Below are positions 2,032-64,000 of a DNA stretch of 64,000 nucleotides, in pieces. Position 1 is the first letter of the stretch. Each line of letters opens with the position of its first letter. The stretch covers positions 257,238,001 to 257,302,000 of the forward strand of contig OZ024742.1 in NCBI GenBank assembly GCA_964016885.1. The letters run 5' to 3'. A model generated the notes under the pieces. The model made no database searches and was not told where the DNA came from. It was given only the letters and a program-made list of their open reading frames with translations. Both the position numbers and the translations under genes were made by a program. This DNA comes from Eledone cirrhosa (Eukaryota).

Positions 2032-3195
2032 TTAAATATGGGTGTTAAATATGGGGTTATACCAAATATATTTTCTACTGCGTGAATTGTTTGATTTCGA
2101 TGTTGTATTTCTATTTACAGTATACTTTGTAGTTCTATGCGTAAGTGCGCGTGTGTGTGTGTTTCTGGAGTTTGTGTTATGCGTGTTCGTTTGCGCTTTG
2201 CGGAGGCTTTCATCTATATATTCTACTCTATCTAAGTGGCCTGCCTTGTCTAATGCGGTATTGTAGTAATCAGCATGTTCCTCGACCATTTGTCGGTTAG
2301 ACGAGAGGCAAGAGATCCTAAGGGGTATACTGCGTGGAATGGATTTAATTATGGATAGTGGGTGGTTTGAGTTACAGTTGATGTATGCTAAGTTTTCATT
2401 AATTTTGTGAAAGGGTCTTATAAGTCCTGTATTTAGGTTAAGCGTCGCGTCTACAAAGTTAACTGTTTTAGTGCTAAACGCATACGTTATTCTAAGGCCT
2501 AGTTTCCCGAGAGTATTTCTAATATTCTTACGGAGTCTTTCTATGCTCTGATTATTTAGGTTCTTTACTAGAAGGGCGTCGTCTCTGTAGATTCCACCTT
2601 GAAGGTCGCTAAACTCACTCTGTAAATGATGGGCTATGTAAATACCTACTAAATCTGTGACTTGAGCCGAGTCGTTAGCCCCCATCGTGATGTCAAAGTT
2701 ATTTAATCTATCCTTACGTTCCCAATAGGCGTTTTCAAATTGAATTATTGTTTTCCTAGCAGCTAATATGATTTTTATCTCGTCATCTGTTAGGTCAGAA
2801 TTGGCTTTGGAGAATGCTAAGGCTTTATTCAAGGTCTTGTGGGATATAGAGGAGTAATAGTCATTAAGGTCAAATTGTATACATTCAGATACTTTTTTGT
2901 TAGCTATATTGTTAAACCACTTAATTGTTTCGGTAGCCTTACCCCATAGTTTAATCACTAGTTTATTCTTCATTTGTGCTATCCCTCTATCTAATATATA
3001 TTTACTAATTTTCCCGATGTCCGATTTGGATGTGCATATAAGTCTAATTGTGGGGTTATAATCAAAATTTACCTTGTGGTCCTTGAGATTTAATGCGGGG
3101 GTACAAGGCCTAAATGGCTCCGTTCTGTCGTCTATTGCTAGATGTTTGACTATATTGTGTGCCTTGTTGTTGATGTTTATCAGTGCCGCCTCATT
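2032..3195 (-). pseudogene. PLE reverse transcriptase (probably Hydra-type clade), disrupted
   Basis: LKDHKVNFDYNPTIRLICTSKSDIGKISKYILD, QFDLNDYYSSI, FDITMGANDSAQVTDLVG, GIYRDDAL, VNFVDATLNL, YINCNSNHP, IWYNP; stop at 2032. Confidence 0.9.
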
Positions 3196-3408
3196 AGTTT
3201 TTTTTTGTACTTCCTATATAATTCTTTCCATATGAAGCTATTGTTAATACATACAATAGCTTCATACGGAAAGAATTACATAGGAAATACAAAAAATCTA
3301 ATGAGGCTGAACTAATAAACATCAACAACGAGGCACACAATATAGTCAAACATCTAGGAATAGAGGACAGAACGGAGCCACTTAGGCCATGTACCCCCAC
3401 ATTTAATT
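3088..3408. repeat. About 155-bp imperfect fold-back at the 5' truncation point of the PLE
   Basis: 3088-3245 is the reverse complement of 3253-3408 (roughly 90% identical) around a short loop. Confidence 0.9.
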
Positions 3409-3977
3409 TCTTCGGTTTCTTCGTTCTTTCCCTCCCCTTTTTGGCTATATTTTCTTTTCTTCTTTCTCCCCCCTTCCTTGCTTTTATTTTTGTCATTATT
3501 ATCTTTATGTTTATGTTTTATATATATATATTTATCTCTTTATATCCCCCCCACCCTATCTCTCTCTCTCTCTCTCTCTCTCTCCATCCCTCCCAGTATG
3601 ATCAAGTCTACATATCAAAACTGATCAAGGAATCCTTCTACCTCCACCCCTCCCTCCATCTCAGTTTGTCACTCTACTTCCTAACTATTCCCCCCTTCCT
3701 CCCTTTCTATACTATTCCGTTTGTCCCCTCACCTTCTAATTCCTCTTCCTCTCTCTCTATACTAGTAAATACAATTAAAAAAAATGTTTTTTCTCTACAT
3801 ATTAAGAACTATTTCAAGAGTAACTTATTCACTATTTTGAAAATTTGGACGTGAACAACAATTATAATTGAGTGGGTGCTATTTGCAGTATAGCAATGTA
3901 AGGTTGCACTTACCAATGAAACGGTCGTAAATACCTGGATAAAATGCTTCTCTTAATGCTTACCTGTGTTTTCTCTG

Positions 3978-16614: not shown

Positions 16615-17180
16615 GATAAGCAGAACAAGTAAAATTCAATCAATTTTTCAAAATACATTAAAAAATATAATATAAATATTTACCTCTTCTAGTGGCCCTT
16701 ACTGATCAGTTTCGCTCTGTAAAACCTCATAAATCCGATGGATTTATGATGGAAAACCAAAGCTCATCAGAGAAGCATTTTCCCTCCCTAGGGCTAAACG
16801 TCCCAGGAACGACACAATATACAACCTCCTGCCAACTAATAAAGGTCTGAAAGGTCGTAAAATTGATTTTGTCGTTCCTGGGACGTTTAGCCCTAGGAAG
16901 GGAAAATGCTTCTCTGATGAGCTTTGGTTTTCCATCATAAATCCATCGGATTTATGAGGTTTTACAGAGCGAAACTGATCAGTAAGGGCCACTAGAAGAG
17001 GTAAATATTTATATTATATTTTTTAATGTATTTTGAAAAATTGATTGAATTTTACTTGTTCTGCTTATCTTAATATTAAAGTTCTGGTGTATCAAATTAA
17101 CACCATTGAACAACCTTGAATCATAGACAACCTATGTATTTTTAGGGGTACCTAGTATCCCTGGACATATTAACTTCTAC
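16608..17180. mobile_element. Non-coding HHR element inserted as a head-to-head inverted pair in (TA)n
   Basis: Arms 16608-16814 and 16870-17076 (about 207 bp, 1 mismatch seen), 55-bp spacer; right copy extends to about 17180. Confidence 0.9.
16908..16989 (+). ncRNA. Type I hammerhead ribozyme with extended stem II (mirror copy on minus strand 16695-16776)
   Basis: CTGATGA 16914-16920; stem II GCTTTG/CAGAGC enclosing hairpin TCATAAATCC/GGATTTATGA; GAAA 16971-16974; palindromic ACTGATCAGT; GTA 16982-16984; stem I weak. Confidence 0.75.
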
Positions 17181-21140: not shown

Positions 21141-21430
21141 GAATGTATATATAGTGTATTTTGCAATACACTGTATTCATAATTAAAAGCATTTCGAGGA
21201 CATTACGCTATTGTTTTAGAGTCTTGACAGTTTCACTTACTTAACATTTTCAGCAAACAGGGGAGATACATTTGACATTGCTCTGTTTCGTAGTGATTGG
21301 TGCTTATCACTACTTTAAAACAATAGCGTAAGGTCTTGGAAATGCTTTTAATGAAGCATAAAGTGTATTGAAAAATACACTATATATACATGCATATATA
21401 TATCGCTATTTCAGAGCACCAATTCTAATA
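21141..21430. mobile_element. Old inverted-pair relic homologous to the 310-bp monomer
   Basis: 21141-21222 is the reverse complement of 21312-21393; 21323-21429 aligns to the 310-mer (ATAGCG..AGGTCTT..ATATATCGCTATTTCAGAGCA); (TA)n on both sides. Confidence 0.75.
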
Positions 21431-42267: not shown

Positions 42268-42312
<45 letters not shown>

Positions 42313-42469
42313 TGGAATAAATGCTCTGAAATAGCGATATATATGTGAATATAGACATAGAATATTCGAAAATATTCTGTATGTTTATAATAAACATTTT
42401 GAAGACCTAATCGCTATAGAATAGAATACGTCACGTATTACAATTAGATTCTCGATAAAAGCAAGGGAA

Positions 42470-42512
42470 GTAATCTACGCGTTTCATTCTTGTTAGAATT
42501 CATCAGGACTAC
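42470..42512 (-). ncRNA. Same hammerhead on the minus strand; copies at 42780, 43090, 43400
   Basis: Exact reverse complement of 43868-43910. Confidence 0.92.
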
Positions 42513-43867
42513 ATATCCAGTGCTTTTATCGAGAATGACACAGCTAGAGACTTATAGAATACTTAGCTGTGTACAGGAACTGGTTTGAAAGAGCGGTTGC
42601 CGGTCCGGCAGAAATTAGAAATTGGAATAAATGCTCTGAAATAGCGATATATATGTGAATATAGACATAGAATATTCGAAAATATTCTGTATGTTTATAA
42701 TAAACATTTTGAAGACCTAATCGCTATAGAATAGAATACGTCACGTATTACAATTAGATTCTCGATAAAAGCAAGGGAAGTAATCTACGCGTTTCATTCT
42801 TGTTAGAATTCATCAGGACTACATATCCAGTGCTTTTATCGAGAATGACACAGCTAGAGACTTATAGAATACTTAGCTGTGTACAGGAACTGGTTTGAAA
42901 GAGCGGTTGCCGGTCCGGCAGAAATTAGAAATTGGAATAAATGCTCTGAAATAGCGATATATATGTGAATATAGACATAGAATATTCGAAAATATTCTGT
43001 ATGTTTATAATAAACATTTTGAAGACCTAATCGCTATAGAATAGAATACGTCACGTATTACAATTAGATTCTCGATAAAAGCAAGGGAAGTAATCTACGC
43101 GTTTCATTCTTGTTAGAATTCATCAGGACTACATATCCAGTGCTTTTATCGAGAATGACACAGCTAGAGACTTATAGAATACTTAGCTGTGTACAGGAAC
43201 TGGTTTGAAAGAGCGGTTGCCGGTCCGGCAGAAATTAGAAATTGGAATAAATGCTCTGAAATAGCGATATATATGTGAATATAGACATAGAATATTCGAA
43301 AATATTCTGTATGTTTATAATAAACATTTTGAAGACCTAATCGCTATAGAATAGAATACGTCACGTATTACAATTAGATTCTCGATAAAAGCAAGGGAAG
43401 TAATCTACGCGTTTCATTCTTGTTAGAATTCATCAGGACTACATATCCAGTGCTTTTATCGAGAATGACACAGCTAGAGACTTATAGAATACTTAGCTGT
43501 GTACAGGAACTGGTTTGAAAGAGCGGTTGCCGGTCCGGCAGAAATTAGAAATTGGAATAAATGCTCTGAAATAGCGATATATATGTGAATATAGACATAG
43601 AATATTCGAAAATATTCTGTATGTTTATAATAAACATTTTGAAGACCTAATCGCTATAGAATAGAATACGTCACGTTTATTATAAACATACAGAATATTT
43701 TCGAATATTCTATGTCTATATTCACATATATATCGCTATTTCAGAGCATTTATTCCAATTTCTAATTTCTGCCGGACCGGCAACCGCTCTTTCAAACCAG
43801 TTCCTGTACACAGCTAAGTATTCTATAAGTCTCTAGCTGTGTCATTCTCGATAAAAGCACTGGATAT

Positions 43868-43910
43868 GTAGTCCTGATGAATTCTAACAAGAATGAAACG
43901 CGTAGATTAC
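43868..43910 (+). ncRNA. Minimal type I hammerhead; identical copies at 44178, 44488, 44798, 45108, 45418, 45728, 46038
   Basis: GTAGTC-CTGATGA-ATTCT AACA AGAAT-GAAA-CGCG-TA-GATTAC; predicted cleavage after 43904 (GUA); enclosed by a 16-bp stem ATTCTCGATAAAAGCA/TGCTTTTATCGAGAAT. Confidence 0.92.
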
Positions 43911-46236
43911 TTCCCTTGCTTTTATCGAGAATCTAATTGTAATACGTGACGTATTCTATTCTATAGCGATTAGGTCTTCAAAATGTTTATTATAAACATA
44001 CAGAATATTTTCGAATATTCTATGTCTATATTCACATATATATCGCTATTTCAGAGCATTTATTCCAATTTCTAATTTCTGCCGGACCGGCAACCGCTCT
44101 TTCAAACCAGTTCCTGTACACAGCTAAGTATTCTATAAGTCTCTAGCTGTGTCATTCTCGATAAAAGCACTGGATATGTAGTCCTGATGAATTCTAACAA
44201 GAATGAAACGCGTAGATTACTTCCCTTGCTTTTATCGAGAATCTAATTGTAATACGTGACGTATTCTATTCTATAGCGATTAGGTCTTCAAAATGTTTAT
44301 TATAAACATACAGAATATTTTCGAATATTCTATGTCTATATTCACATATATATCGCTATTTCAGAGCATTTATTCCAATATCTAATTTCTGCCGGACCGG
44401 CAACCGCTCTTTCAAACCAGTTCCTGTACACAGCTAAGTATTCTATAAGTCTCTAGCTGTGTCATTCTCGATAAAAGCACTGGATATGTAGTCCTGATGA
44501 ATTCTAACAAGAATGAAACGCGTAGATTACTTCCCTTGCTTTTATCGAGAATCTAATTGTAATACGTGACGTATTCTATTCTATAGCGATTAGGTCTTCA
44601 AAATGTTTATTATAAACATACAGAATATTTTCGAATATTCTATGTCTATATTCACATATATATCGCTATTTCAGAGCATTTATTCCAATTTCTAATTTCT
44701 GCCGGACCGGCAACCGCTCTTTCAAACCAGTTCCTGTACACAGCTAAGTATTCTATAAGTCTCTAGCTGTGTCATTCTCGATAAAAGCACTGGATATGTA
44801 GTCCTGATGAATTCTAACAAGAATGAAACGCGTAGATTACTTCCCTTGCTTTTATCGAGAATCTAATTGTAATACGTGACGTATTCTATTCTATAGCGAT
44901 TAGGTCTTCAAAATGTTTATTATAAACATACAGAATATTTTCGAATATTCTATGTCTATATTCACATATATATCGCTATTTCAGAGCATTTATTCCAATT
45001 TCTAATTTCTGCCGGACCGGCAACCGCTCTTTCAAACCAGTTCCTGTACACAGCTAAGTATTCTATAAGTCTCTAGCTGTGTCATTCTCGATAAAAGCAC
45101 TGGATATGTAGTCCTGATGAATTCTAACAAGAATGAAACGCGTAGATTACTTCCCTTGCTTTTATCGAGAATCTAATTGTAATACGTGACGTATTCTATT
45201 CTATAGCGATTAGGTCTTCAAAATGTTTATTATAAACATACAGAATATTTTCGAATATTCTATGTCTATATTCACATATATATCGCTATTTCAGAGCATT
45301 TATTCCAATTTCTAATTTCTGCCGGACCGGCAACCGCTCTTTCAAACCAGTTCCTGTACACAGCTAAGTATTCTATAAGTCTCTAGCTGTGTCATTCTCG
45401 ATAAAAGCACTGGATATGTAGTCCTGATGAATTCTAACAAGAATGAAACGCGTAGATTACTTCCCTTGCTTTTATCGAGAATCTAATTGTAATACGTGAC
45501 GTATTCTATTCTATAGCGATTAGGTCTTCAAAATGTTTATTATAAACATACAGAATATTTTCGAATATTCTATGTCTATATTCACATATATATCGCTATT
45601 TCAGAGCATTTATTCCAATTTCTAATTTCTGCCGGACCGGCAACCGCTCTTTCAAACCAGTTCCTGTACACAGCTAAGTATTCTATAAGTCTCTAGCTGT
45701 GTCATTCTCGATAAAAGCACTGGATATGTAGTCCTGATGAATTCTAACAAGAATGAAACGCGTAGATTACTTCCCTTGCTTTTATCGAGAATCTAATTGT
45801 AATACGTGACGTATTCTATTCTATAGCGATTAGGTCTTCAAAATGTTTATTATAAACATACAGAATATTTTCGAATATTCTATGTCTATATTCACATATA
45901 TATCGCTATTTCAGAGCATTTATTCCAATTTCTAATTTCTGCCGGACCGGCAACCGCTCTTTCAAACCAGTTCCTGTACACAGCTAAGTATTCTATAAGT
46001 CTCTAGCTGTGTCATTCTCGATAAAAGCACTGGATATGTAGTCCTGATGAATTCTAACAAGAATGAAACGCGTAGATTACTTCCCTTGCTTTTATCGAGA
46101 ATCTAATTGTAATACGTGACGTATTCTATTCTATAGCGATTAGGTCTTCAAAATGTTTATTATAAACATACAGAATATTTTCGAATATTCTATGTCTATA
46201 TATATATATATATATATAGGCAGCATGACCCTCCCA

Positions 46237-53830: not shown

Positions 53831-54215
53831 ATAATGTAGCGGAAATAATTCAGTGTCAGTTTTATAAGAGATATGATTCACAGAAAAGATCTTTGGTTAC
53901 TTTGTTGGAATAGAAAAGGAAGTTTTAGAATACAAGGAAGTGAAATAGCTATGGGACTTTCTCCATAGAAACTGAGAGTAAAATAGGGCATAACAATCAG
54001 GATATTGTAGTCGTTGGTTGGAAGAAGAATCTGGTAATTGATATAGCATGCCGGATACCAGAGTTAAAAATATAATGACATCCGTAATATATAATATCCT
54101 GAACTACTGAATACAAGAAGGTGACGATATCTATGTGTTTTGTTATCATCGGAGCTTCAGGAACTGTGACAAGGAACTTAAAAGTGAACCTTGGAAAGCT
54201 GGACCTTAATTTGGG
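53825..54215 (+). mobile_element. R4/Dong-like RLE non-LTR fragment
   Basis: RHDNVAEII, VLEYKEVK*LWDF, IGHNNQDIVVV, LVIDIAC, VIIGASGTV. Confidence 0.8.
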
Positions 54216-54226
54216 AATAGATGACA

Positions 54227-54620
54227 GCTATTAACAACACAGAAGTACTTTAATTGGAGCGAGAGGACAGTTATTGACAATATAGAAGGACCTTAATAGG
54301 GGAGAGAGAGAGATGACAGCTATTAACAACGCAGAAGGACTTTAATTGGAGCGAGAGGACATCTATTAACAACATAGAAGGACCTTAATAGGGGAGAGAG
54401 GACAGCTGTTAACAATGTAGAATGACCTTAATAGGGGAGAGAGGACAGCTGTTAATAATATAGAAGGACCTTAATAGGGGAGAGAGGACAGCTGTTAATA
54501 ATATAGAAGGACCTTAATAGGGGAGAGAGGACAGCTGTTAATAATATAGAAGGACCTTAATAGGGGAGAGAGGACAGCTGTTAATAATATAGAAGGACCT
54601 TAATAGGGGAGAGAGGACAG
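54227..54620 (+). repeat. 43-bp minisatellite (about 9 units); inverted copies at about 55030-55100 and 55345-55490
   Basis: Unit GAAGGACCTTAATAGGGGAGAGAGGACAGCTGTTAATAATATA. Confidence 0.92.
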
Positions 54621-54758
54621 CATGGAGTTGCTGCCCTTTATCGTCTGAGTTCGGATCCCGCCGAGGTTGGCTTTGTCTTTCATCCTTGCGGGGTCGATGG
54701 AGTGGGGTACCAGTGGTGCGCTGGGTAGTTGCTGGTCAAAAGTAGAAACAATTATTTA
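54618..54758 (+). mobile_element. SINE copy with clustered A-to-G substitutions
   Basis: GATAAAATAAAGTACCAGTAATGCAC in other copies reads GATGGAGTGGGGTACCAGTGGTGCGC here. Confidence 0.85.
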
Positions 54759-54805
54759 ACAGAGTATTCGTACCATGAAATGTTGGGATCTGGTAATAAC
54801 TCCCA

Positions 54806-54843
<38 letters not shown>

Positions 54844-55533
54844 GTAGTTGTCAAATTCTGGGGTTGATGAGATCGACTCCCTACCATAACATTTACCGAC
54901 CTTGTGCCCAAATTAGAAATCATCATTAGTTTTGCTGTTGCTGTTGCTGTTGTTGTTGTTACACGGTATTGAACTTGTGGTTGTAATAAGTACACTTCCT
55001 ACCAGACCACAACTCATGGTCTAGGACGAGAAATATCTCTCCTATAAAGGTCCTTCTGTATTGTTAATAGCTGTCCTCTCTCTCCTATTGAAGTCCTTCT
55101 GTAAAGACATTATTGGGGGAGACTTAGCTGATCACCGAAACCCAACCACAACAGTATCTTCTGATGTACAAAGGTGCATCAGGAAGCAATGTCCAACTCT
55201 CGGAGGCTGAGGTCACAAGAACAACTTAAGAGCTCAAATGTGGCAAAGCATCTAGGAAGGGTGAGAGTTGGCCAGAGATGTTAAAAGCCTTATATAGAGA
55301 AGGTATTTTCTAGCTGATTCATGTGCGCCAGGTCTCCTGAATCTCTGGTCCTTCTATATTGTTAATAGCTGTCCTCTCTCCCCTATTAAGGTCCTTCTGT
55401 AGTGTTACTAGATGTCGTCTCTCCCCTGTTAAGGTCCTTCTATATTGTTAACAGTTGTCCTCTCTCCCATATTAAGGTCCTTCTATGTTATATATATATA
55501 TACATATATATATACACACACATACATATATAC

Positions 55534-59000: not shown

Positions 59001-59057
<57 letters not shown>

Positions 59058-59061
<4 letters not shown>

Positions 59062-59473
59062 TAAACGGAATAGAAAATGCTGACAAATTGTTCACAGTTG
59101 AAAAATGGTTTAATTAGGAATAAAAGAGTATTAGTGATTGTATGGGTTAGTATTCAGTTGTGGTTTTAAGTTTTTAAGTTTTTACCGGTTGCGCATTTCT
59201 AAATGCTTTTCAAAGATAACTTTGAGATAGAGCCTCCGTGTTGTTAGCTCTGATCAGAGCCAACAATACGGACGCTCTATCTCAAAACCACCCCTGAAAA
59301 GCACTCAGAAATGCGCAACCGGTAAGAACTTAAAACCACAACTGAATACCAACCAATACAACCACCAATACCCCCCCATTCCTAATTAAACCATTCTTCA
59401 ACTGTGAACAACTTGTCAGCACCCTCCATTCCGTTCACCAACATATAACAACTTGTGTGTTACACTTCCGTTC

Positions 59474-59570
<97 letters not shown>

Positions 59571-59806
59571 TAAAATAATAGAGGTGCAACACACAAGCCA
59601 CCATATATTGGTAAACGGAATAGAAAACGCTGACAAATCGCTCACAGTTTGAAAAATGGTTTAATTAGGAACAAAAGAGTACTAGCGATTGTATGGGTTA
59701 GCATTCAGTTATGGTTTCATGTTTTTAAGTCTTTACCGGTTGCGCACCTCCAAATGCCTTTCAATAACAATTTTGAGATAGAGCGTCCGTGCCGTTTGCT
59801 CTGATC
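59058..59806. repeat. Three copies of an about 200-bp pLTR-like unit: palindrome centred at 59253 plus a third copy across (TA)n
   Basis: 59058-59253 and 59254-59446 are inverted about GCTCTGATCAGAGC; 59570-59806 is inverted to 59254-59476. Confidence 0.9.
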
Positions 59807-59828
59807 TGATTAGTTTTGGGAATTCTAC

Positions 59829-60057
59829 CTGTTTTTATGTTAAAAAAAGTGGCTCCAGCGTTATTTTTGTGTTGCAAAAAGTATTGTGGTCAAAACAATT
59901 TTGATTGGTCGGTAGAGGTCATGTGAATGTAAAAAGTTGATTTTGCGCCAAGACTGTTTTTATGTTAAAAAAGTGGCTCCAGCAAAAATTCTTCGTCAGA
60001 ACAATTTTGATTGGTCGGTAGAGGTCATGTGAATAAAAAATTGGTTTTGCGCCAAGA
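59829..60057. repeat. About 115-bp tandem duplication (another of about 120 bp at 60230-60450)
   Basis: CTGTTTTTATGTTAAAAAAGTGGCTCCAGC...TTTTGCGCCAAGA occurs twice. Confidence 0.8.
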
Positions 60058-60104
60058 TTGAGAAATCACTCTTTCACAACAAATATGTGTGTGTGTGTGT
60101 GTAT

Positions 60105-60147
<43 letters not shown>

Positions 60148-60234
60148 TGTGTGTATGTGTGTGTGTAGTAGTAGTAAGGTGTTCGATGTTGCGACAATGG
60201 CTAGCAGCGATGTGTGTCAAATGGCTATTAAGAT

Positions 60235-60287
<53 letters not shown>

Positions 60288-60829
60288 GCAGAGTGATTCG
60301 TGGTGGCAGGGATGGTCAGTAAGAATGTGTCTGAAAGCAATGGGGGGTATTTTAGCATCTCAAAAGATAAGTGTGTGTGTGAGTGTGTGTGTGTGTATAT
60401 ATCAGAGTAATTTGTGGTGGCAGGGATGGTCAGTAAGAATGTGTCTGAAAGCATGTCCAAAGATATTTTTCAGCTTTTGTCTTATACGGAGAAGTGCGTG
60501 TGTGTGTGTGTGTATATAAGTCTCTTTGTATGTTGATGTACGCGTGTGTATGTGTTTGTGTATATATGTGTGTGTGTGTGGGTGGACCAGTATTGTTCCC
60601 CCCTGGTAAAATGGTGTACATTATTCGATTTTTTCAGTAAAATCGGTTCTCTTAATAGAACATCAAAAATCTTAACAATAAAAGGTGTGAAATGATATTC
60701 ACTATATATATATACACATACATATATTCACTACAAATATATATATATATATATATACACATACATATATATATGCACATATATTTCTTTGTATTGCACC
60801 ATAGAGCATGTGTGTTTACGTGTGTCATT

Positions 60830-63800
60830 GTGTTTATATGTGGGTAGAGATGTGTGCTGATGTAGGTATGTATGTTGACGTGTGTATGTTGTGGGTTCGT
60901 CTTAGGGAGAAGTGTTTAGACGGGGTCCGTATTTGTTAATGAAGTAAGATTCCTTGCTGATGCGCTGGGTGTGGGTGGCACTGTCTTTAAATTTGTAGAG
61001 GGGAAAGATTCTGAAGTTGGGATGATTTTGGGCGGCACAGGTATCAATGTTTTCACTCAGTGGTATTCTCCTGTATTCCCGTATTTTAATTTGGGATCTA
61101 TGGACAGTCATGCGTTGGCGGAGGCTGTTTTTGGTCTGGCCTATGTATTGTTCTCGACAAACTGAACAAGTTAATACATATATTAGATTTTCCGATGCAC
61201 ATGTGAAATTGTGTTTTACTATAAAACGTTGTCCATCTTTGAAATAGAATTCCGAACCCTCTATTAGGTTGATGCAAATGCCACAGTTGGGTCTATCGCA
61301 TTTTTTTACTGTGGGTTTCGTTGTTGTGGTTGGCAGTACTTTGGCATGTGTTCAGATGTTTTTCATTGACTTGGATTGTCTTTTGCTCTTTATGATATCG
61401 TGTGTTCGTAGAATTTGGTTCATTCTATTGTCCTTTTTCAATACAGGGATGTTCTGGAGGATGGTGTCAAAGGCCTCATTGTTAAGGGGTTGTGTGTGGA
61501 GATGTATGGAAGAGCTTTTAGTTTTGGTTGATTTACTTTAGGGTCTCTAAGGTCCTGGGTACTGAGTTTTAGGGCACGTTGGATTCCTTTGTCAATTAGT
61601 GATGCAGGGTAGTCCTTGCCTATGAGTGTGTCCTTTAGTTCTTGTAGCCGTAAGTAGCAGATGTTTTTATTGGAGACTATAGTACAGATTCTCTTGGCTA
61701 AATTGTAGGAATATTAATTTTGACGTGTCTAGGGTGGCAAGAGTTGAATGGGAGATATTGCTTGGAGTCTGTGGGCTTGTAGTATATGTCTGTTTCTATT
61801 TGTTTGTTATGGATCTTAATGAGGATGTCGAGGAAGGGGAGTTGTTGATGGCTGTATTCCATCGTGAAGTTAATATTTGTGTTGAGCCCATGTATAAGGG
61901 TGTGAAATTCTTTAAGTTTTTCGATGTTTTCGTGCCAAAGGATGAAGCAGTCATCTAGATATCGCTTCCAGTTCCTTTCAATGTGTAAGTGGAGGGTGTT
62001 TCCAAATTTGTTTAGGACTTTAGTGTAGAGGGTGATTTCCAGGTATCCCATGACTAGGTTGGCATAAGTAGGGGCTGTTTTCGTTCCCATAGCGGTCCCA
62101 GATTTCTGCCTGTAGGGTTTGTTATTGAAAACGAAGTAATTGTTCTCCAAGATAAATTTGAGTCCCTCTATCACGAATTCTTTTTTGATGCATTGTGGGA
62201 GTTCATTTAGGAAATTATCCAGCCAGAATTGGATAGCTTCTATTCCTAGGTTGTGGGGGATGTTGGAGTATATGTTGACTTAATCGAACGTCACTAGTAG
62301 GGTTTGTTCAGAAAGTGGCATATTAGGGAGGTGATTGAGCATATCTAGGTCGTCCCTTATATAGCTTTTGATGTGCTTGAGGAAGGGTTTGAGAAGGGTA
62401 TCAATGATGTTGCTAAGACGGTGTGTTTCGCAAGCGGGGCCTGCTATTATAGGTCTTAATTTGAGATCATTGGGTGAGGGGACATTGATGACTATGTCTG
62501 TGGCTTCCTTGCATGCCTTACTTATTGATTCGCTTTTATGTACTTTAGGGATACCGTAGAAAAGGCTGGATTTACTTGTGAAGTCTGTGATGAAGCTGAA
62601 TTCCTTGTTAGTGAGTCCTTCTTTGTATTGGTTGATTAGAGTTTTTAGGTTTCTCATAATTTTCTGTTGATTGTAGTGTTCAGCCTTTTCGTAGTATGTT
62701 TCGTTTTCCAAAGTGGAGAGCTCTAAGTTGATATAGAATTCTGTCTCCATTAGGACTACTGTACTCCCTTTATCAGCCTCTTTAATTGTAATGGTTCTGT
62801 CGGTTTTTAATCTATTTAATTCTTCCCATTCTTTCTTGTTGAGGTTTGGCTTGTGCTTTTGTCTGTGCAAGTGTTGGTAAGGGAAGTTTGTGATGTGTTC
62901 ACAGAATTCGTCCCGGATTTTATTTCTACCTTTTGAAGGGGTGTAATTGCTTCTCTTCCTGGCTAATGATTCATCCTCATTGTACTGGTCGAATAGTCGT
63001 TCACTAAGTCGTAACTTTCTACAGAAGTCTGTGATGTCTTCCTTCATTTCATAGTAGTTAGGACGTAGTGGGGTCGGTGTGAATTTAAGACCTTTGGAGA
63101 GTAAGTTGATAAGGTAGGGTGTTGGTTCTGCACTAGTAAGATTGATAATTTTTATTACTATCGGTTTCTCCTCCCTGTCTTGTGTTATTTTGTTTGCCTG
63201 TATCTGTGTGCTGTGTCTAAAAAATGGTTGGGGTAGAGGGGTTGTCTGCTGATGTTAAGTGGTCTCCTGTGTTTGTTATATTCCTTGTTGTTGTAAAATG
63301 TGGTTCGGGTTGGTGGTTGTAGATTGAATGGGGTGTTCCTGCACTGCGAGTATGGGTGTGTGTTTCTATGTGCCATGTTGTATTGTGGTGTTATAAGTGG
63401 CCTACGTTGTTGGTTGTATCGTGTGGTGTGGGTTCGTTGTGTATTGTGGAAGTGAGAGTTGAGAAAATGGTAATTACATTGCTGTCCCCTTGAAGCGGGG
63501 AAGTTGTTGCATCTATCATGGCGGTGGTATCTTTTCCCTATGTTTGACGATGAGGAATCCGCGTAGTAGTTGAGTGATTTGGTATGGTGTCTCCTTGAAG
63601 GGGGAAAGTTGTAAATGTCATTCTGGGGGAGATGATTTCTTGAGTTTTTGTTCCTTCTTATGGTAGCGAGGTTGGGAAGTTCATCTTCGGTGTGGTGCTT
63701 CCTTCTTCGTTTGTTTGAGGCTTGGGGGTTTGAGAAGTTGTTGTGCGGTTCAGTTATGGGTTTTCCTATTTTTATGAACGGGTTATTGGAGGTGTAATCC

Positions 63801-64000
63801 GTTTGAAAAGTCGATTCATAGTGTAGGAACCAAGCGGCACTTTTTTCCCAGCGTTGAAGGGATTTCAGTTCTTCTCTGTTGCAGTCCTCTTTCCATAATT
63901 TGGAGATCTTCTCTACCTTGGGGCCTTCAGTTTTGTTGTTGATTTCCAGGAGGATCTCTTCATCGATGGTGTTGATTTTTTCCTCATTTGTCTGGGCCCT
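60830..64000 (-). mobile_element. Neptune-type Penelope-like element, continues past the window end
   Basis: RT motifs, CxxxxCxxC linker and C-terminal GIY-YIG, all collinear. Confidence 0.93.
60902..63150 (-). pseudogene. PLE RT-GIY-YIG ORF with nonsense codon (62280) and frameshifts
   Basis: IKEADKG, FYGIPKVHK, LRPIIAGP, LVTFD*VNIYSNIPH, GTAMGTKTAPTYANLVMG, WKRYLDDCF, LPFLDI, DIYYKPTD, CDRPNCGIC, NLIYVLTCSVCREQYIGQT. Confidence 0.93.

What the first reader, a model, noticed from the sequence alone, without database searches (positions are those of the whole stretch)
59254..59806. Strand-coherent A-to-G hypermutation on both arms of a fold-back: ADAR editing fossilised in DNA?
Seen: comparing 59254-59446 (reverse-complemented) with 59058-59253, about 25 of about 30 substitutions are A-to-G (manual count; AATAGAAAAT to AATGGAGGGT, AATAAAAGAG to AATGGGGGGG). 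Most have a 5' T or A neighbour, and A after G is often spared. The third copy (59570-59806), which is inverted to that arm, carries more than 15 T-to-C changes on plus, so again A-to-G on minus. Established: ADARs hyper-edit both arms of dsRNA and disfavour a 5' G, and coleoids edit heavily. Inference: a minus-strand hairpin RNA was hyper-edited and reverse-transcribed into the genome. Caveats: the intervening (TA)n is barely changed, and nanopore errors at palindromes or polishing with RNA reads could mimic this.
Basis: partly seen in the sequence, partly recalled or inferred. Interest (0 to 1): 0.85.

Follow-up and report, generated by a model that had tools for sequence, protein, structure and literature searches.

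The report
RNA edits mirrored in a Penelope insertion
A jumping-gene insertion carries about fifty one-way A-to-G changes confined to two arms that can pair into a hairpin, repeated in mirror image at its far end, most likely because the RNA-editing enzyme ADAR altered the RNA before it was copied into inherited DNA.

Summary
Observation confirmed. The three arms (A, B, C) are terminal repeats of a Penelope-like retrotransposon with RT and GIY-YIG on the minus strand. Against the family majority, B has 27 of 76 A>G and C 21 of 88, both on the element's sense strand. A has 2 of 80, the body 9 of 1767, and 133 other arms about 0.6%.

The block recurs inverted 5.3 kb away, beyond the window. It shares 37 of 39 edits but differs at 11 ordinary sites. 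An edited transcript or RNA-read polishing cannot give mirror-identical changes on opposite strands. Twenty-four unedited fold-backs argue against a palindrome artefact.

An independent locus (C437) repeats the pattern: two arms edited, third spared, A after G avoided (3 of 37 pooled). Best reading (0.85): an ADAR-hyperedited read-through RNA was reverse-transcribed, one molecule likely templating both ends.

Open points: no raw DNA reads were available, the (TA)46 loop is unedited, and no parent locus was found. Earlier scan notes (unchecked) report the same phenomenon in other families of this genome and in other genomes. I found no paper on it for germline retrotransposons.

The parts
59005..59058 (.). 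(TA)n tract at the left edge; likely the insertion target
   Evidence: the right edge also sits in (TA)n
59052..59253 (+). Arm A: pLTR end copy, unit positions 33-239, lacking the 32-nt tail; unedited (2 of 80 T>C)
59254..59478 (-). Arm B: inverted pLTR end copy (unit 2-239, with tail and an 8-bp deletion typical of a subfamily); 27 of 76 A changed to G on the minus strand
   Evidence: against the natural unedited sister arm in L131: 29 A>G of 35 differences
59477..59568 (.). (TA)46 spacer between B and C, one interruption; not hyper-edited
59570..59810 (-). Arm C: the element's own 3' pLTR end (unit 2-240); 21 of 88 T>C on plus, which is A>G on the sense strand
59811..60901 (-). Rest of the pLTR / 3' region; no A>G excess
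60902..61351 (-). GIY-YIG endonuclease frame, preceded by a CxxxxCxxC linker (Neptune/Nematis-type)
   Evidence: PF01541 E=5.5e-08, above cut-off; translation
61698..63254 (-). Reverse transcriptase, in two frames (broken)
   Evidence: PF00078 E=1e-4, below the curated cut-off; two single-base deletions against sister copies in the region compared
63185..64000 (-). N-terminal part of the ORF. It continues past the window for about 400 bases and is cut about 92 nt after the family's start codon. It is followed, outside the window (G000:C3:257302404-257303087, L031 6404-7087), by the inverted duplicate C'(unit 135-2)-(TA)n-B'-A'(unit 239-1, with tail) that carries the same edits, there A>G on plus

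Best explanation
This is a 6.0-kb Penelope-like retrotransposon insertion whose paired end-repeat arms carry dense A-to-G changes on the element's sense strand, most likely made by ADAR on the RNA before reverse transcription. Shown: the element's identity, the three-arm block C-(TA)n-B-A, its inverted duplicate at the other end, the restriction of changes to C and B, and the shared edits. Inferred steps: (1) A source element lay next to further short insertions of its own family in one TA tract; such unedited arrangements exist (L040, L026). (2) A read-through sense RNA folded C with B, leaving A single-stranded. (3) ADAR deaminated about a quarter to a third of the paired adenosines. (4) With C's tail paired and edited, reverse transcription started further downstream in the intact arm A, at the two family-typical start sites (unit 1 and 33). 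(5) One RNA molecule likely templated both cDNAs, of 5.35 kb and 0.68 kb, which were joined head to head. Inosine was copied as G and the insertion became heritable. Step-level odds: ADAR-edited RNA 0.85; one molecule for both ends 0.75; A on the same RNA rather than added by a template jump 0.6.
For: Class and strand purity: B 27 A>G of 36 changes, C 21 T>C of 25, both A>G on the ORF's sense strand. Sharp boundary: 21 T>C in C against 9 of 1,767 T in 4,527 body columns, p=1e-22. Mirror copy shares 25 of 27 and 12 of 12 edits, while two independent events share only 14 of 32 and 11 of 33. The two blocks differ at 13 of 561 columns (2.3%), twice the body's distance from the family (54 of 4,527, 1.2%), as expected if they were duplicated at insertion after editing. 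The ends (unit 33 left, unit 1 right) match the family: 77 and 48 of 133 arms start at 1 and 33. Independent locus C437: 27 of 81 and 23 of 63 edited on one strand, terminal arm 1 of 88. Pooled 5' neighbours U 39/81, A 46/124, C 9/56, G 3/37, G versus rest p=3e-4; no 3' G preference, p=0.29. This matches the invertebrate hyper-editing motif in PMC5625713 (passages). With the edits undone in memory, folding pairs C with B (212 bp) and leaves A out.
Against: No raw DNA reads were seen: the run search hit only small shares and 4 of 24 runs laid gave nothing. The (TA)46 loop should extend the stem, yet has at most 1 change in about 44 A; P=7e-6 at this locus's UAU rate of 4/14. It also has nearly the same length at both ends (92 and 92-93 nt). 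No parent locus was found by two exact patterns. A and B carry different subfamily markers. B has two A>G that B' lacks. C437 is a 26-kb unplaced contig, and it was found with a pattern that fixed two UAG sites. ADAR genes were not searched for in this genome.
Confidence: 0.85

Rival explanations
1. Assembly artefact: long-read errors at a palindrome, or polishing / gap filling with edited RNA reads.
For: No DNA reads could be checked. The equal TA lengths at both ends are odd. The second case lies near the end of a small contig.
Against: 24 other fold-backs of the same sequence show 10 of 3,195 A>G and 23 of 3,698 T>C. The edits are mirror-identical on opposite strands, which one transcript of this locus cannot give, while the blocks differ at ordinary sites. 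The body has 2 single-base deletions in the 3.6-kb ORF region compared, not an indel-rich error profile.
Confidence: 0.05
2. A burst of reverse-transcriptase misincorporation (C opposite A, e.g. from nucleotide-pool imbalance), or a DNA-level adenine deaminase, produced the changes without ADAR acting on RNA.
For: It would also give one class on one strand, fixed at insertion. No enzyme was tested here.
Against: The changes stop at the limits of the C-B duplex in two independent events and spare the arm copied first and the 4.5-kb body. The 5' G avoidance fits ADAR. The same sites are changed in both cDNA arms, which two separate error-prone passes would not give. Editing of the cDNA strand would read T>C on sense, not A>G.
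Confidence: 0.06
3. Biased gene conversion or hairpin mismatch repair between the arms, or ordinary old divergence.
For: The arms are inverted repeats, and A and B share markers near their junction.
Against: Conversion copies existing alleles, but the G alleles are private: B's best match outside this element is 85%. GC-biased repair would give A>G and T>C on both arms; B has 27 against 3. Old copies such as L038 show mixed classes.
Confidence: 0.02
4. Variant of the best reading: the edited RNA ended at B, and the unedited arm A came from a second RNA by a template jump at the GATC palindrome; or the mirror block was copied from the first cDNA rather than from the RNA.
For: A and B differ in subfamily markers. 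No parent with A's markers was found. C437 has a short duplication at the B/A junction.
Against: C437's B/A pair has the ordinary fold-back form (unit 33 / unit 1). Unedited three-arm loci exist (L040). Folding alone explains why A is spared.
Confidence: 0.35

Closest known systems
Endonuclease-bearing Penelope-like elements (Neptune/Nematis type) with inverted pLTRs and a 30-40 bp tail (PMC8557442, PMC3846280 passages; PMC11167929 parts 1-2 of 4)
   Same: RT plus C-terminal GIY-YIG, cysteine linker, microsatellite target, 5'-truncated inverted copy, 32-nt tail at one end only, tandem pLTR-ORF structure in sister copies.
   Different: The terminal block carries two extra arms and about 50 A>G changes; the passages I read describe no edited copies. 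No hammerhead was found in it.
ADAR hyper-editing of inverted repeats in RNA (PMC5625713, passages)
   Same: Dense A>G clusters on paired arms, G depleted upstream, no downstream-G preference as in the invertebrate group.
   Different: Here the signature sits in the genome assembly itself, duplicated in mirror image.
ADAR-linked A-to-G hypermutation of avian retroviruses RAV-1 and ALV (Felder 1994; Hajjar and Linial 1995; seen only as cited in PMC8586724)
   Same: Edited RNA reverse-transcribed into DNA.
   Different: Those are exogenous viruses; this is an endogenous non-viral retrotransposon copy old enough to have gathered about 1.2% further changes.
APOBEC 'DNA editing' of retroelements in vertebrate genomes (PMC4866542, PMC2873906, passages)
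   Same: Deaminase scars fixed in retroelement copies, strand-biased relative to the ORF.
   Different: That is G>A made on cDNA, in LTR elements, and absent from 19 invertebrate genomes; other mismatch classes were reported as very rare. This is A>G, tied to RNA pairing.

Membership tests
EN+ Penelope-like element | RT followed by a C-terminal GIY-YIG endonuclease in one ORF | tested here: met
   PF01541 above cut-off; PF00078 E=1e-4 below cut-off; this copy's frame is broken
EN+ Penelope-like element | pLTRs, direct in tandems and inverted at the truncated 5' end | tested here: met
   The unit directly precedes the ORF start in L116 and sister loci; inverted copy at the truncation point
EN+ Penelope-like element | 30-40 bp tail at one end only | tested here: met
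   77 and 48 of 133 arms start at unit 1 and 33; this insertion has 33 left and 1 right
EN+ Penelope-like element | Hammerhead ribozyme in the pLTR (usual, not universal) | tested here: inconclusive
   No Rfam hammerhead in L031 or L116; a recalled core motif found none in the element's window part
Neptune/Nematis clade | CX2-5CxxC linker and RT phylogeny | tested here: inconclusive
   CxxxxCxxC present; no tree built
ADAR hyper-edited sequence | One class (A>G) in dense clusters on one RNA strand | tested here: met
ADAR hyper-edited sequence | Confined to double-stranded regions, both arms | tested here: met
   C and B edited; A and body not. Exception: the (TA)n stem is spared
ADAR hyper-edited sequence | G depleted 5' of edited A | tested here: met
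   3 of 37 against 94 of 261, p=3e-4 pooled; p=0.06 for this locus alone
ADAR hyper-edited sequence | Dependence on ADAR; inosine in the RNA | not testable with these tools
   needs RNA-seq of source-type loci or enzyme work
Genomically fixed edit | G alleles present in raw genomic DNA reads | tested here: inconclusive
   No run held the stretch; indirect support from the diverged mirror copy
APOBEC DNA editing | G>A on the sense strand | tested here: not met
   Changes are A>G on sense, and A is the ancestral state

The most novel reading that the evidence does not exclude
ADAR edits are written into the germline genome through Penelope retrotransposition, and they act as single-molecule barcodes. 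Here they show that one sense-strand RNA templated both arms of an insertion from two start sites. They also suggest a filter: a hairpin that buries and edits the normal start arm pushes initiation to an intact downstream arm, so edited arms hitch-hike as a 3' transduction. Pure (UA)n stems may be refractory to editing.
Probability: 0.55. Interest if true: 0.82.

Novelty: new variant of a known kind. Interest (0 to 1): 0.7.

Why it matters
If true, it is a direct route from an RNA modification to a heritable DNA change in an animal, and a record that ADAR acts on retrotransposon RNA in the germ line. It also bears on an open mechanistic question. PMC3846280 argued for an antisense template for Penelope fold-backs without excluding a sense one, and PMC11167929 found two RT start sites in vitro but left later steps unvalidated. 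Shared edits on both arms give an in vivo read-out of template strand and of the number of RNA molecules used. The events are rare in this family: 2 found, against 5,860 exact unedited 30-mers, with patterns that miss some edited copies. The effect on genome evolution is therefore probably small.

Tried and rejected
Sequencing runs: the search returned 24 rows, all with shares of 0.09 or less, probably from the TA tract that I left in the query. Laying 4 of the 24 on 59062-59474 gave no cover. This is no evidence either way.

Parent locus: the exact pattern with arm A's markers matched only this element's two ends. The junction pattern matched the left end and L131, an unedited sister fold-back that is not the parent. 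One later mutation would hide a parent.

Edited subfamily: rejected; B's best outside match is 85% and C's is 90% (40 candidates scored in each).

One T>C pattern found nothing, but it did not match even the known edited arms, so it is uninformative.

L009 and L038 were flagged by low identity and proved to be old copies with mixed changes.

Rfam gave only sub-threshold hairpin and microsatellite matches.

A literature search on editing of AU repeats gave nothing relevant.

Not done: a genome-wide control pattern for another substitution class, and an ADAR gene search. The class control rests on the 133 fetched arms, which are best-scoring hits and so lean towards little-changed copies.

Full report
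Observation. Arm A (59058-59253) against the reverse complement of arm B (59254-59446) differs by 30 substitutions, 25 of them A>G. A against arm C (59570-59806) differs by 24, 16 of them T>C. The window is G000:C3:257238001-257302000 in a 3.0-Gb genome. The repeat is abundant: one 30-mer with the A alleles has 5,860 exact matches, so G is the derived state.

Family comparison. I aligned 157 arm hits from the loci to one natural copy and took the column majority as reference. I dropped 24 hits in 7 loci that were this element itself or a duplicate locus, leaving 133 background arms; these are best-scoring hits and may hold a few repeats. B has 27 of 76 A>G and C 21 of 88 T>C; A has 2 of 80 T>C. 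The background is 0.56% A>G and 0.66% T>C. No background arm has more than 8 changes of any one class, and that one (L038) is an old copy with mixed changes.

The element. C runs on into a minus-strand ORF with a CxxxxCxxC linker, GIY-YIG (PF01541, E=5.5e-08) and RT (PF00078, E=1e-4, below cut-off). In sister copies the unit directly precedes the ORF start, and arms begin at unit position 1 (77 of 133) or 33 (48 of 133). This is the pLTR with its optional 30-40 bp tail described for Penelope-like elements (PMC8557442 and PMC3846280, passages). PMC11167929 (parts 1-2 of 4) ties the tail to two RT start sites and reports cleavage and extension of both target strands. The hypermutated class in B and C is A>G on the ORF's sense strand. 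It stops where C's pairing partner ends: 21 T>C in C against 9 of 1,767 T over 4,527 body columns, p=1e-22.

The mirror copy. Just beyond the window (L031 6404-7087) the block recurs inverted as C'(unit 135-2)-(TA)n-B'-A'. The insertion begins at unit 33 on the left and ends at unit 1 on the right, as ordinary copies do. B and B' share 25 of 27 edits; C and C' share 12 of 12 in the part both cover. The blocks differ at 13 of 561 columns, or 2.3%, two of these being the unshared edits. The body differs from the family at 54 of 4,527 columns, or 1.2%. That 2:1 ratio is what duplication at insertion, after editing, predicts. The left edits read A>G on minus and the right ones A>G on plus, at the same sites. 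A transcript of this locus, or reads from one, would give changes on a single strand at unlinked sites. Twenty-four other head-to-head fold-backs in the sample carry 10 of 3,195 A>G, so palindromes as such are not miscalled.

An independent case. Three degenerate patterns for edited arms each returned 3 matches: the two ends of this element and C437:25270-25980 (L136); a fourth returned none. L136 has the same order: an inverted unedited stub from unit 33, an edited C-type arm (27 of 81), a short TA loop, an edited B-type arm (23 of 63) and an unedited tail-bearing arm (1 of 88). Its edits overlap this locus at 14 of 32 and 11 of 33 sites, more than chance (p=0.004, 0.003) but far from the identity of the mirror copy: shared hot spots, separate event.

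Neighbour bias. Pooled 5' neighbours are U 39/81, A 46/124, C 9/56, G 3/37 (G versus rest p=3e-4). 3' G shows no preference (17/42 against 80/256, p=0.29). PMC5625713 (passages) reports upstream G depletion in both of its species groups and no downstream G preference in invertebrates. The full order U>A>C>G as the ADAR preference is recalled, not from a call.

Why C and B but not A. With the edits undone in memory, the minimum-energy fold of the whole block pairs C with B (212 pairs) and leaves A out; C-TA-B scores -369 and B-A -296 kcal/mol. The sequence as it stands prefers B-A (165 pairs). C also precedes A in the transcript, so it would meet B first (inference). Unedited arrangements of this type exist: L040 has two short insertions side by side in one TA tract, and L026 has two tails facing across TA. 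C's own tail is edited, and in both events the terminal tail-bearing arm is clean, which suggests that RT started at the intact downstream arm (inference, two cases only). The alternative is a template jump from an unedited RNA; A and B differ in subfamily markers, and no parent was found.

Against. No raw DNA reads were seen. The (TA)46 loop is predicted to pair (43 pairs) but carries at most one change, P=7e-6 at the UAU rate of 4 of 14. It is 92 nt on the left and 92-93 nt on the right, so later expansion from a short tract is a poor explanation. I cannot explain this. ADAR genes and the species were not checked.

Known precedents. ADAR-linked A>G hypermutation is recorded for two avian retroviruses (seen only as cited in PMC8586724, passages). 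APOBEC G>A scars are common in vertebrate LTR elements and absent from 19 invertebrates, with other classes very rare (PMC4866542, passages). PMC2873906 (passages) treats genomic A>G clusters as background. Searches (listings and abstract starts only) showed no paper on ADAR-edited retrotransposon copies fixed in a germline genome. The library lacks most subscription papers and I read no supplements, where such cases could be listed. Earlier notes of this scan report the same phenomenon in other Penelope and CR1 copies of this genome and in other genomes; none matched this family's sequence. They are unchecked and I do not count them as support. One reports edits on the opposite strand in another genome, so the sense-template result may not be general.

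Verdict. A real feature, best read as an ADAR-hyperedited Penelope RNA fixed in DNA (0.85). It is a new variant of a known kind; its particular value is the mirror copy and the twice-seen spared third arm. Interest 0.7.

Noticed in passing
window 54618-54770: A SINE-like repeat copy with 17 of 47 A changed to G on the plus strand against the majority of 34 other hits (9 other changes; 0 of 5 after G). A second candidate editing scar in the same window, with no paired arm found beside it.
   Followed up: partly
G000:C437, L136 1089-1892: Independent hyper-edited three-arm insertion of the same family, with a short duplication at the B/A junction.
   Followed up: yes
window 59477-59568 and L031 6540-6632: The two copies of the TA loop have almost the same length (92 and 92-93 nt) despite 2.3% divergence of the flanking arms, and neither is edited.
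   Followed up: partly
window 42306-46213: 310-bp tandem array, 99-100% identical copies, that flips orientation at 43675 (4.4 and 8.2 copies) and is bounded by TA tracts.
   Followed up: no
window 54201-54621 and 55036-55486: 43-bp minisatellite with inverted copies about 0.4-0.9 kb downstream.
   Followed up: no
L131 1314-1733 (G000:C4): Unedited fold-back whose two arms share an 8-bp deletion and two private changes but differ at three subfamily marker sites, hinting at template switching or repair during insertion.
   Followed up: partly
L012, L037, L044, L051, L057, L074, L092: Fold-backs recur at the same GATC site (unit 236-239), suggesting a preferred self-priming point.
   Followed up: no
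window 16682-17002, 3085-3410, 21154-21380: Other palindromic fold-backs in the window with mixed substitution classes and no A>G bias.
   Followed up: partly
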